Source: Thermoplasmatota archaeon
Lineage (GTDB): Archaea > Thermoplasmatota > Penumbrarchaeia > Penumbrarchaeales > Penumbrarchaeaceae
DNA length: 51,914 nucleotides
Reading direction: 5' to 3'
Assembly: GCA_029762535.1 (NCBI GenBank)
Contig: JARVGK010000022.1
Span: forward strand, 1-51,914
Made by a program: the position numbers and the translations under genes
In this document: positions 10,833-17,261 of the stretch, piece by piece
Layout: every line of letters starts with the position of its first letter
Position numbering within the stretch: position 1 is the first letter of the stretch
Notes under the pieces: generated by a model
What the model saw: only the letters and a program-made list of their open reading frames with translations
Database searches by the model: none
Told to the model about the DNA's origin: nothing

Positions 10833-13800
10833 TTGTCATCAGATCGGATTGATGGGAGGGAGGCAGCACCGCCCCCACCGGACGGGTATATGGACCCCGA
10901 TGATACTTTGTTCTCCCGGGATAGGTATACCGATAACCTTGAGTCCGTGGCAAAATGGATCGAACGGATGGGAGGGGATAGAAGCAAGGCCTTTGCGAGG
11001 GTCCTCATCGTCAACAACGGTCTCTCCGCCCTGCGTCTCATACAGGGGATCGCATCCCTATCGAACCTCATATCGGGCGGAAAGGACCCTAACCTGATAC
11101 AGGCGGTCGCGATCGCCTCCGATGCGGACTGGGTCGGGGACCGTCCCGAGGATGCGCAACAACGCCCCAACTATCTCAGGGAACCGGACATAATGGTCGC
11201 CCGCATCAAAGGGTCCAGGCCCAGGGACACATATCAGGACCAGGACACGATCATATCGATCGCCAGGAGGTACGGATGCGATGCGGTCGCAGTGGGATGG
11301 GGTCACCTGGCCGAGAACGCGGCGTTCTCCTCCCGAGTGGAGAGGGAAGGATCGGTCTTCATAGGGCCGCATTCCGAGGCGATGAGCCTGATGGGCGACA
11401 AGATCATGTCCAAGCTCATCATGGACGAGGCGGGTGTCCCCCTCCTCCCCTGGAACGGTTCGGATGTGTCCTACTCGGAGATCAGGGCGGACGTGGAGCG
11501 TCTTGCCAAGGAACGCGAGGAAATCGAGGGTCCGCTCTCCGCTTCGGACCGCTTCCATATGCTATTCGATCTGGCCTATGAAAGGGTCGGGATAGCCTCC
11601 GTCGAGAAGGCCAAGGCCGTTATCGAAAGGATCGGTCTTCCCGTGGTCATCAAGGCTACCGCGGGCGGGGGCGGAAGGGGAATACGTTTCGTGACAAATG
11701 AGAAGGACCTCTCATCTGGTCTTCAGACAGCGATCTCCGAGGCTTCCGCCGCCTTCGGGAACGGGACCGTATTCATCGAAAAGGCCGCAGACCCGGGCTC
11801 GAGACACATAGAGGTCCAGATACTGGCCGACGATGCAGGTACCGTCATAGCTCTGGGAGAGAGGGAATGTTCGATACAGCGTCACAACCAGAAGCTGATC
11901 GAGGAGAGCGGTGATGACATTCCGATCAAGGAGGCCACCAGAAGGGTATTGAGGGACGCGGCGGTAGATGCTGCAAAGGCCGTGGGTTATGTGAACGCAG
12001 GCACCGTGGAATTCCTGGTGGACAAGGATGGCAATCCTTTCTTCATGGAGATGAACACAAGGCTGCAGGTAGAGCACATCGCCACCGAAGCGTTGTATCC
12101 AGGGCTCGATCTCGTCGTTGAGCAGCTAAAGATAGCGATGGGGATACCCTTGGACGATCAACTTGTATCGTTAGGTGAGTCCCTCAAAACAGGCAGACAC
12201 AGCATATCGGTTCGCATAATGGCCGAGAATCCCAATGTCGGTTTCAGCTCTCAGACTGGCACTATCGGATCATTGGACATACCCAACCTGGGTCCCAATA
12301 CCCCGCGCGCTTATTTTGGATTCGGACAGGGTGGTACCGTTCACTCCTTCGCTGACAGCCAGATCGGTCACGCGGTGGTAAGCGGGCGGGACAGAGAGAG
12401 GGCCCGTCGTCACATGGTGGCGTTCCTATCAAAATTACGGATCAAAGGGATATTGACAACGGTTCAGTTCTCCGTGTCCATCCTTCAAGATGACCAATTC
12501 ATCGATGGAAAGAGGATCCATGTGAGCTGGCTGAAACAGAGGCTCGATGAGGCGCGTTCAAAGCCGGGGGAAACGCTCGGATCACCCGTCAGACCGGAGT
12601 TGGGCTTGGCGGCATTGGCGGTATTCGATTATCTATTTCAGAAGGCGGAATCTCAGGAAAAGTTCCATTCCAATATCATATCATCAAGGTCGATCACTCC
12701 CAGATTGCTCTCCAATACGGGTCTGACACGAGTGAAGTACGGAGGGCGTCATTACACCGTCATCGTCCGGGAGATAGGGGAAGAACAATACGAACTGGTC
12801 CTTGGCAATGGCCGGGCCATCGTCAGGTTCTGGGAAAGGCTTGGCCCCTCGAGGTTCATGATGGAATACGGAGGGACCGTCTATCAAGTATACAGAACGG
12901 ATGAGACATCGATCATACACGTGCAGGTCGGAGGGCATACCATAACCTTCGAGCGCGACCTCGATCCCGATGTCTACCGGGCCCCTCTGGCCGGGATCAT
13001 ATCATCCGTTGACGTCAAACAGGGGCAAAAGGTGAGCCCCGATGATACCCTGTTCACGATCGAGGCGATGAAGATGATCTCATCTCTGGTAAGTCCTCGG
13101 GATGCCCATATCGCAGATGTGTTCGTCGAGCCGGGTTCGATCGTGGAAGTGGGCACACGGTTGTTGAGGTTCGAGAATGTTCAGGATCAGGGGACTTTAG
13201 GTGAAGCTGTAGGGAACGGATCGGAGGATGACGACGGGGAACCACAACTGAATCTCATGAACGACACAGCCGGAATTCTGTCCAGACTTAATCGCAGATG
13301 GCATGTGAGAACTCATACCAACGGTCGCCATGCCGGTCGGTTGAGTGATGTACAGAACAACGGCAAGGACCGAGTATGCGCGCCTCAAGGTCCGAAGATC
13401 CCTCGTTGGAATATGGAAGTAGGGGAGACGCTCGCCGTAGAGTTCGATGAGGTCAGGATGCTGATCGGGAACATCATGCGCGGTTATCAGCTATCGAATC
13501 AAGACCTCGGATCCTTGATCGAAGAGATCGCGGATATGAGGGGGAGGCTCAAGGAAGGGCAGTGGATGGACCTTGTGAAAGATGCAATAGAGATTTTTTA
13601 CAGGGATGAAAGATACTTCAAAGGCACCACGATACTCGTTGAGGGACTGGCCACAGCTGAGAGGGAATCGGGGATCACCGGCGAAGGGAAATATGCCCTG
13701 GCTCGGTCCCACGCGAACCTTCCTGCCAAGAAGAGGCTGCTCCTATCCCTGCTCGAACCCATCACCCCCATGGAACTCGAGTCGATGGTTCCGCTTCTTG

Positions 13801-16800: not shown

Positions 16801-17261
16801 CGCCCTATGCGGAGCTCAGAGGGGGAGCATGGGTCGTCGTCGATACCCAGATCAATCCCGATAGGATCGTACTTCTGGCCGACGAGCACGCAACGGGTTC
16901 CGTCCTTGAGCCTTCGGGGATGGAGGCGGTCCCACTAATACAGAGAGAGATCAGCCGCGACTTGATCGGTCGGGACCCCATCCTCACCAGGTTGTACAGG
17001 AACCGCACGAAATACGCGACACAAATGGACCGTATAAAAAAGATAGACCAGGAGATCGAGGATCGCGAATCGGCCATACGATCGGACTACGTTAAGAAAT
17101 GGACCAGGATCTTCAGGTTGCACAATACGGCACAGAGAATGGGGGCTCTGGGAATAGCTGCAGAAGTGGTGCCGACAAAAAAGGCAAGGGAGGCCATATA
17201 CAGGCATCTCTCGATATCCCTATCAAATATCCGAAGTGATCATGTGAAGAAGGACGATTGA
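10833..17261 (+). CDS. Single-chain multidomain acetyl-CoA carboxylase, eukaryote-type (BC-BCCP-central-CT)
   Basis: BC: VLIVNNG, GWGHLAEN, GGGGRG, CSIQRHNQK, EMNTRLQVEH, HSFADSQIGH. Biotin site EAMKM (Lys codon at 13071). CT: SGARIGLA, IILTG, LGGPHIMGPNGVSH, ETRTV..IPADP, GQVWYPDSAFKT, NWRGFAGG, ELRGGAWVV. TTG start preceded by GGAGG. Confidence 0.93.
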   Translation: MSSDRIDGREAAPPPPDGYMDPDDTLFSRDRYTDNLESVAKWIERMGGDRSKAFARVLIVNNGLSALRLIQGIASLSNLISGGKDPNLIQAVAIASDADWVGDRPEDAQQRPNYLREPDIMVARIKGSRPRDTYQDQDTIISIARRYGCDAVAVGWGHLAENAAFSSRVEREGSVFIGPHSEAMSLMGDKIMSKLIMDEAGVPLLPWNGSDVSYSEIRADVERLAKEREEIEGPLSASDRFHMLFDLAYERVGIASVEKAKAVIERIGLPVVIKATAGGGGRGIRFVTNEKDLSSGLQTAISEASAAFGNGTVFIEKAADPGSRHIEVQILADDAGTVIALGERECSIQRHNQKLIEESGDDIPIKEATRRVLRDAAVDAAKAVGYVNAGTVEFLVDKDGNPFFMEMNTRLQVEHIATEALYPGLDLVVEQLKIAMGIPLDDQLVSLGESLKTGRHSISVRIMAENPNVGFSSQTGTIGSLDIPNLGPNTPRAYFGFGQGGTVHSFADSQIGHAVVSGRDRERARRHMVAFLSKLRIKGILTTVQFSVSILQDDQFIDGKRIHVSWLKQRLDEARSKPGETLGSPVRPELGLAALAVFDYLFQKAESQEKFHSNIISSRSITPRLLSNTGLTRVKYGGRHYTVIVREIGEEQYELVLGNGRAIVRFWERLGPSRFMMEYGGTVYQVYRTDETSIIHVQVGGHTITFERDLDPDVYRAPLAGIISSVDVKQGQKVSPDDTLFTIEAMKMISSLVSPRDAHIADVFVEPGSIVEVGTRLLRFENVQDQGTLGEAVGNGSEDDDGEPQLNLMNDTAGILSRLNRRWHVRTHTNGRHAGRLSDVQNNGKDRVCAPQGPKIPRWNMEVGETLAVEFDEVRMLIGNIMRGYQLSNQDLGSLIEEIADMRGRLKEGQWMDLVKDAIEIFYRDERYFKGTTILVEGLATAERESGITGEGKYALARSHANLPAKKRLLLSLLEPITPMELESMVPLLEKLIGLGYSGKHRDVSARAEELIHLLHPLHARPIDLHQVMEEIVEAQRSGDITLQSELMNNVMTATESMLSQLIDYLVTGSGFARKIAGKLIIMRAYRGHRGLSCEYEHVEGGKRLYVWRFEDVISGKDRMGLVGLVERGETIRTCLFSMYVRLKEIWSAHPERTDHTGDALEVLIHWPPDIKSSDELSQHLKDVVNDVLGPERLSRVTFVVRNPDDDIPGFFTYRPVGGGEYLEDTLCRNLHPSLAYLVNLKQLEPLRSNIVKLPSADPLVHIFHHRIPNQKGTEMPDKENRIFVRTVIRDPEITMGSEGPSFPAAEEAFANSLRHLRISYVATGAKSHNNQIFLSFAKHLNLSIEEFGRIIKRMIKNKGGFADVDLTRTEVRGRVRSWQSPDESVDVLLVIDNPTGLLMEMKEYIIETNPIDGAPLIMPLNDFIGSGIRCGEGPAGGGWMPLGELIKPMTSLDKKRLIRRQNKKAYVYDRLPILKSELEYIWACSGETMPEEIFTAQEIAIDTRGDLVPIERPVGQNDLSIVAWRVHIKTPEVPCGRELIVVSGDMTYMGGSVSFMEDILFSGAAKMARDDGIPFVYFAEGSGARIGLATIVTKRLAYDEEQEVFYVDKKTYSLLSPLVIGHCDRKKRSRYIITSILGGIPGINVSEDESYLYVSDEVHDRFGDRLTAHPIKMNEDPKEKTRWVINSIDRQYPLINFENLSGSAMMARACSLTYHSVPTMAVVTDTCTGIIAYNVRLLKRIVQTRNSEIILTGFRALNSLYGGDDVYSSNRELGGPHIMGPNGVSHHIVEDESEACREVLKWLSGVPVKKGSLPPIRPGNDPIDRDVSGALIGPHGLIKAPGADVERPVPYDSMDLARIIFDEGSTEEALERWGGTVHVGRAAIGGIPIGFISVETRTVRKEIPADPSVEGSTPEEVNQFGQVWYPDSAFKTSQWIQFMRHERRPLVIFPNWRGFAGGKIDLYEEIIKYGAMIVDELVHFDLPVILYIPPYAELRGGAWVVVDTQINPDRIVLLADEHATGSVLEPSGMEAVPLIQREISRDLIGRDPILTRLYRNRTKYATQMDRIKKIDQEIEDRESAIRSDYVKKWTRIFRLHNTAQRMGALGIAAEVVPTKKAREAIYRHLSISLSNIRSDHVKKDD

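What the first reader, a model, noticed from the sequence alone, without database searches (positions are those of the whole stretch)
10833..17261. Homomeric ACC with eukaryote-specific signatures in a prokaryote
Seen: motifs match yeast/animal/plant ACC rather than AccABCD or archaeal three-subunit carboxylases: VLIVNNG (bacterial ANRG), GWGHLAEN, PWNGS plus a long AB-linker, HSFADSQIGH, a central region of about 650 aa, KTPEVPCGRELIVV, GQVWYPDSAFKT, NWRGF.GG, YIPPYAELRGGAWVVVD. The gene is intronless with an SD and TTG start. Inference: either a eukaryote-to-prokaryote transfer or a prokaryotic sister lineage informative on the origin of eukaryotic ACC.
Basis: partly seen in the sequence, partly recalled or inferred. 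Interest (0 to 1): 0.9.

Follow-up and report, generated by a model that had tools for sequence, protein, structure and literature searches.

The report
Archaeal one-piece acetyl-CoA carboxylase
A sediment archaeon carries an intact, long-resident, one-piece acetyl-CoA carboxylase built like the yeast and human enzyme, right behind a giant fatty-acid/polyketide synthase that it probably feeds; it is a distant cousin of the eukaryotic enzyme, because some bacteria carry closer relatives.

Summary
Observation confirmed. Window 10833-17261 is an intact 2142-aa BC-BT-BCCP-central-CT carboxylase. Catalytic residues are kept, and the central region folds like yeast Acc1 (TM 0.72). The host is a Thermoplasmatota archaeon, probably class EX4484-6 (Ca. 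Penumbrarchaeia). The gene is native (dN/dS 0.13, synteny in independent assemblies) and was found in 15 of 401 phylum genomes, in two families.

The architecture is not eukaryote-specific: actinobacterial SACE_4237 has it. The archaeal clade is neither inside eukaryotes nor their exclusive sister (AU p=0.0005). Four uncultured-bacterial enzymes are closer to eukaryotes (100/100) and share soraphen-site residues that the archaea lack.

Most likely role: making malonyl-CoA for the adjacent 3308-aa PfaA-like megasynthase. This is the genome's only CoA carboxyltransferase, and all 15 ACC-positive genomes have the synthase. Against this, 11 relatives keep the synthase with no ACC found. Activity and substrate are untested.

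I found no paper reporting this clade. This scan noted it before in three other genomes.

The parts
10833..17261 (+). Single-chain acetyl-CoA carboxylase gene, 2142 aa (P0001)
10818..10822 (+). Shine-Dalgarno-like GGAGG, 10 nt before the TTG start; conserved in a relative
10992..12536 (+). Biotin carboxylase domain (aa 54-568); ATP, metal and bicarbonate residues kept; eukaryotic soraphen/dimer-interface residues replaced
12648..12953 (+). BT domain (aa 606-707), weak Pfam match
12966..13178 (+). Biotin carboxyl carrier domain; biotin-accepting Lys747 (codon 13071-13073)
13440..15302 (+). Central domain (aa 870-1490); AC1-AC5-like fold; lacks the fungal/animal phospho-loop
15303..17201 (+). 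Two-lobed carboxyltransferase (aa ~1491-2123); Arg1954 and both oxyanion-hole glycine motifs kept
15618..15926 (+). Tandem duplication of the ~45-aa inserted module of the CT N-lobe (aa ~1596-1698), shared by all archaeal members
   Evidence: both copies match the same target residues; 114-150 aa versus 69-85 aa in eukaryotes
819..10745 (+). Upstream partner, 87 nt away and same strand: 3308-aa PfaA-like iterative synthase (NMO/ER-like, KS, AT, KS, 4 ACP, KR, DH, PPTase)
17411..18223 (+). Downstream adenylate kinase; syntenic marker of the locus
27131..28093 (-). Archaeal replication factor C small subunit on the same contig (host marker)

Best explanation
A functional single-chain biotin-dependent carboxylase of an archaea-specific clade. 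Shown from sequence and fold: all domains, catalytic residues, the biotin lysine and the central scaffold. Inferred from ACC biochemistry: the genome's biotin ligase biotinylates Lys747, BC carboxylates biotin using ATP and bicarbonate, the carrier swings to the CT site of a homodimer, and acetyl-CoA becomes malonyl-CoA (propionyl-CoA is probably also accepted). Inferred from context: the malonyl-CoA is loaded by the malonyl-type AT of the neighbouring PfaA-like megasynthase, which activates its own ACPs with a fused PPTase and builds long acyl chains. Possible sinks are OleABCD-type hydrocarbons or PlsC-type acylation. Origin: acquired long ago, probably from bacteria, by an ancestor within one Thermoplasmatota class. 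It is an outgroup to eukaryotes plus a bacterial group, not their ancestor or descendant.
For: Domains and motifs. Central-domain model pLDDT 85, best match yeast Acc1 TM 0.72, E 9e-28. dN/dS 0.13 and host-like codon use. Only PF01039 match in the 93% complete genome; biotin ligase present. Synthase has the KS Cys-His-His and a malonyl-type AT motif. All 15 ACC-positive genomes have the synthase. Synthase-ACC adjacency recurs in G009 of another genus and in independent assemblies of a close relative. In G043 a different CT gene sits directly upstream of the synthase. Trees: archaea 100/100, eukaryotes 96/96, eukaryotes plus four bacteria 100/100, same split in the BC and concatenated trees; AU p=0.0005.
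Against: Eleven family members, including 95-97% complete genomes, keep the synthase (active-site motifs intact in those checked) with no ACC and no PF01039 match, so the synthase may have another extender source. Adjacency is seen in only two of the species-level genomes. Two CoA-phosphate-binding residues recalled from yeast (Lys1592, Arg1731) are replaced. No activity or expression data. The root of the CT-only tree moved between methods. An archaea+MACC grouping was not rejected (p=0.064).
Confidence: 0.72

Rival explanations
1. Its main job is catabolic: a promiscuous propionyl-CoA carboxylase that feeds methylmalonyl-CoA mutase during amino-acid breakdown in a protein-degrading archaeon.
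For: It is the genome's only CoA carboxyltransferase, and mutase plus MeaB are present. SACE_4237 carboxylates both acetyl- and propionyl-CoA (PMC6491548). The class is described as protein-degrading (PMC12220078).
Against: The mutase is also in ACC-less genera, so it does not track ACC. Three f7 genomes have a separate PCC-type CT yet keep ACC. The gene sits behind the synthase.
Confidence: 0.15
2. The gene was transferred from a eukaryote to an archaeon and then diverged quickly.
For: After the archaeal homologues, the best listed database hits are animal ACCs. In one CT-only tree the distant outgroup attached inside an unresolved eukaryote polytomy.
Against: Eukaryotes are monophyletic without it. 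It keeps bacterial-type states in BC motifs and lacks the Lys-Arg-Ser and Trp signature shared by eukaryotes and the near bacterial group. BC identity is 37% to eukaryotes and 39% to MACC.
Confidence: 0.06
3. It represents the archaeal host-lineage ancestor, or the direct sister, of eukaryotic ACC.
For: It is archaeal and branches outside all sampled eukaryotes, closer than MACC in the CT domain (39% versus 26% identity).
Against: An exclusive archaea+eukaryote clade is rejected. It is limited to two families of one class. A motif scan of 185,579 species genomes found no archaeal hit outside Thermoplasmatota (exact-motif scan, so not proof of absence).
Confidence: 0.05
4. Mis-binned eukaryotic DNA or a chimeric assembly.
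For: Such contaminants did turn up in other MAGs (L159, L160, L171).
Against: Archaeal RFC on the contig; one 44-kb contig spans the gene with no differences and independent samples carry the same order; about 20 homologue clusters, several named Thermoplasmatota.
Confidence: 0.01

Closest known systems
Eukaryotic homomeric ACC (yeast Acc1, PDB 5csk/5csl; human ACC1, 6g2i/8xkz)
   Same: Domain order BC-BT-BCCP-central-CT, central-domain fold (TM 0.72), CT active-site motifs, about 39% CT identity.
   Different: Branches outside eukaryotes; soraphen/BC-dimer residues replaced; no Ser1157-type loop; duplicated CT insert; bacterial-type BC motifs.
Actinobacterial homodimeric multidomain acyl-CoA carboxylase SACE_4237 (MACC; PMC6491548)
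   Same: Prokaryotic single chain with a central domain; supplies malonyl-CoA for fatty-acid synthesis.
   Different: About 1830 aa versus 2142; different CT motifs; 26% CT identity; separate long-branch clade in every tree.
Uncultured-bacterial long single-chain ACCs found here (P0126, P0144, L181, L183; deeper P0125, P0136, P0164, P0238, P0273)
   Same: Same architecture; several sit beside a giant synthase or an ACP synthase.
   Different: Where identified, their partner is a mycobacterial/fungal-type FAS I, not PfaA-like. The first four are 51-54% identical to eukaryotes and closer to them than the archaeal clade.
Archaeal heteromeric acetyl/propionyl-CoA carboxylase (3HP/4HB cycle type)
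   Same: Archaeal host; same chemistry.
   Different: Three separate subunits and no central domain (own knowledge; PMC3199775 for the separate BC subunit).

Membership tests
Eukaryotic homomeric ACC | Single chain BC-BT-BCCP-central-CT | tested here: met
Eukaryotic homomeric ACC | Central region with the AC1-AC5 fold | tested here: met
   pLDDT 85; TM 0.70-0.72 to 5csk/5csl; eukaryotic rows were in the alignment
Eukaryotic homomeric ACC | BC and CT catalytic residues and biotin lysine | tested here: met
   residue roles from own knowledge
Eukaryotic homomeric ACC | Branches within the eukaryotic clade | tested here: not met
Eukaryotic homomeric ACC | Soraphen/BC-dimer residues (yeast Lys73, Arg76, Ser77, Trp487) | tested here: not met
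   Arg68, Gln71, Gly72 and Arg at the Trp site; residue roles from own knowledge, mechanism in PMC5126230
Eukaryotic homomeric ACC | Ser1157-type regulatory loop (fungi and animals only) | tested here: not met
   31 aa versus 68-84 aa over the same span; also short in some protists
Eukaryotic homomeric ACC | Acetyl-CoA carboxylase activity as a homodimer | not testable with these tools
   needs purified enzyme
Actinobacterial-type MACC (SACE_4237) | Single chain with central domain in a prokaryote | tested here: met
   PMC6491548
Actinobacterial-type MACC (SACE_4237) | About 200 kDa with MACC-type CT motifs | tested here: not met
Actinobacterial-type MACC (SACE_4237) | Branches within the MACC clade | tested here: not met
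   MACC is 100-supported without it; a sister grouping was not rejected, p=0.064. SACE_4237 itself was not in the tree; actinobacterial orthologue-like proteins stood in.
Archaeal heteromeric ACC/PCC | Separate BC, BCCP and CT subunits | tested here: not met
   one ORF

The most novel reading that the evidence does not exclude
These archaea run an ACP-dependent, malonyl-CoA-based type I fatty-acid pathway (single-chain ACC plus a self-activating PfaA-like megasynthase) and put the products into ester lipids or long-chain olefins alongside isoprenoid ether lipids.
Probability: 0.4. Interest if true: 0.85.

Novelty: new variant of a known kind. Interest (0 to 1): 0.6.

Why it matters
Archaea are described as lacking type I and complete type II fatty-acid synthases and nearly always ACP (10.1101/2024.07.05.601840). 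A resident single-chain ACC coupled to an ACP-bearing megasynthase would be a malonyl-CoA route to acyl chains in an archaeon, which bears on the lipid divide. It is testable: a same-family genome with the gene comes from an enrichment reported at about 90% of archaeal 16S amplicons (PMC12220078). The origin of eukaryotic ACC was left open (PMC3199775) or assigned to actinobacteria (PMC6491548). The trees here show a wider prokaryotic radiation, with uncultured bacteria nearest to eukaryotes and this archaeal clade as a further outgroup that lacks the eukaryotic regulatory surfaces.

Tried and rejected
Paper searches for an archaeal ACC with central domain, or a Thermoplasmatota ACC plus PKS, found nothing. 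The class paper's main text does not mention ACC, malonyl or polyketide. The library lacks most subscription papers. Two soraphen/holoenzyme papers were not held, so residue roles rest on my own knowledge.

The careful CT-only tree did not finish; the quick tree was used. No complex prediction was sent, since a CT dimer would pass by likeness to solved structures. No RNA holder was listed. The sigma-70 scan of the intergenic gap was uninformative for an archaeon.

Methylmalonyl-CoA mutase, pyruvate carboxylase and OleC/OleD do not track ACC across relatives. PlsY was not found and GpsA gave only weak partial hits. The metagenome scan with P0126 returned 50-55% hits that I did not classify. Eukaryote-like hits in several bacterial MAGs (L159, L160, L171) were set aside as probable contamination.

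Full report
OBSERVATION. Window 10833-17261 (+) is one open frame of 2142 aa from a TTG. A GGAGG box lies 10 nt upstream, and both are kept in a close relative. Pfam gives BC, a weak BT, a biotinyl domain, ACC_central (E 9e-34) and a carboxyltransferase in the eukaryotic order. Human ACC1 is the best solved relative (E 4e-226). An AlphaFold model of aa 870-1490 (pLDDT 85) matched only ACC central domains significantly, best yeast Acc1 at TM 0.72.

HOST AND REALITY OF THE GENE. The contig carries an archaeal RFC small subunit, and named homologues are Thermoplasmatota. A 44-kb contig covers the gene without differences, and independent assemblies of a relative show the same gene order. dN/dS is 0.13, GC3 is within the genome's interquartile range, and codon use is host-like. 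About 20 homologue clusters span 43-90% identity. ACC_central was found in 15 of 401 phylum genomes, in two families of one class.

CATALYTIC ANATOMY. BC keeps the ATP-binding lysines, the glycine loop, and the metal- and bicarbonate-binding Glu, Asn and Arg residues. The carrier has Lys747. CT keeps Arg1954 and both oxyanion-hole motifs (roles from own knowledge). Differences from eukaryotes: the yeast Lys73/Arg76/Ser77/Trp487 positions read Arg/Gln/Gly/Arg, and the Ser1157-type loop is absent. Soraphen and phosphorylation act through the BC dimer (PMC5126230), so I predict neither control applies. The small inserted module of the CT N-lobe is duplicated in all archaeal members.

NOT EUKARYOTE-SPECIFIC. 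SACE_4237 of Saccharopolyspora erythraea is a characterised bacterial homodimeric ACC with the central region (PMC6491548). A central-domain search and a genome scan also found longer bacterial enzymes. [quoted passage not shown] P0273 has little context and is bacterial only by assumption.

PHYLOGENY. In a BC tree rooted on pyruvate, urea and other carboxylases, and in a BC+CT tree, the archaeal proteins form a 100-supported clade. Eukaryotes are monophyletic (91 and 97), and four bacterial enzymes join them on a long 100-supported branch that excludes the archaea. A careful tree without MACC gives archaea 100/100, eukaryotes 96/96 and eukaryotes plus four bacteria 100/100. Forcing archaea and eukaryotes together costs 163 log-likelihood units (AU p=0.0005). 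The soraphen-site signature is shared by eukaryotes and those four bacteria but not the archaea, and those bacteria average 51-54% identity to eukaryotes against 37-39% for this protein (two of them computed). Caveats: 22-54 rows in the IQ-TREE trees; long-branch P0136 left out of the reduced sets; some eukaryote rows are unlabelled. In CT-only trees the MACC root moved and the four bacteria fell inside an unresolved eukaryote polytomy. An archaea+MACC grouping was not rejected (p=0.064). The direction of transfer into the archaea is inferred from the patchy distribution, not shown.

FUNCTION FROM CONTEXT. The gene 87 nt upstream encodes 3308 aa scoring 997 bits against PfaA (cut-off 1010). 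It has KS, AT, a second KS, four ACPs, KR, DH and a fused PPTase, plus an N-terminus resembling NMO-family barrels (a lead for an enoyl reductase). Its KS triad is intact and its AT motif is of the malonyl type. The ACC is the only CoA carboxyltransferase found in the genome, and a biotin ligase is present. All 15 ACC-positive genomes have the synthase. The pair is adjacent here and in G009; in G006 the synthase is followed directly by adk with no ACC. Possible sinks in this genome are OleC/OleD homologues and two PlsC-type acyltransferases; a PcrB/GGGP-synthase-family gene is also present. The main weakness is that 11 family members keep the synthase with no carboxyltransferase found. A propionyl-CoA role is possible because mutase and MeaB are present, but the mutase does not track ACC.

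VERDICT. It most likely works like eukaryotic ACC, but it is not a member of the eukaryotic clade or of the MACC clade. It is a new archaeal variant within a prokaryotic radiation of single-chain ACCs, most likely supplying malonyl-CoA to a PfaA-like synthase. I found no publication on it. This scan has noted the same clade in three other genomes; one of those notes gave the lead about closer bacterial enzymes, which I tested here.

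Noticed in passing
window 819-10745: PfaA-like iterative synthase with four ACPs and a fused PPTase in an archaeon; found in 21 of 23 family genomes and 4 of 4 of family f7. The product is unknown.
   Followed up: partly
L146, L201, L181, L183: Uncultured-bacterial single-chain ACCs that branch next to eukaryotes and carry the soraphen-site signature; two lie beside a type I FAS. They may be the best lead on the origin of eukaryotic ACC.
   Followed up: partly
G004, G005, G006, G010 (L137-L139, L116): Near-complete relatives keep a synthase with intact active-site motifs but no CoA carboxyltransferase was found; their extender source is unexplained.
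   Followed up: partly
G043:C54:30506-31951 (L136): In another Thermoplasmatota family a PCC-beta-type carboxyltransferase sits directly upstream of the homologous synthase.
   Followed up: no
G000:C36:85585-88172: OleC- and OleD-like genes in this genome; also in G009, G032 and the ACC-less genera.
   Followed up: partly
L001/L135 (G020) and G002 C92, C132: The ACC gene is split by frameshifts in one MAG (possibly sequencing indels), and G002 has a second partial copy.
   Followed up: no
L159/L182, L160, L171/L198: Eukaryote-type ACC sequences in bacterial MAGs; two are fragmented like intron-bearing genes and one groups with green algae. Probable contamination.
   Followed up: partly
window 29326-32526: Lower-GC, purine-rich run of short ORFs, mostly without family matches; one PRC-barrel, one RING-finger-like and one weak CDC48_N-like match.
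   Followed up: no
window 17411-18223: Bacterial-type adenylate kinase of 270 aa whose Pfam match is split in two, suggesting an insertion.
   Followed up: no
window 36219-42877 and 47080-50199: A 1656-aa peptidase C25 protein, a PorA-like protein, and a 1039-aa ORF with no Pfam match.
   Followed up: no
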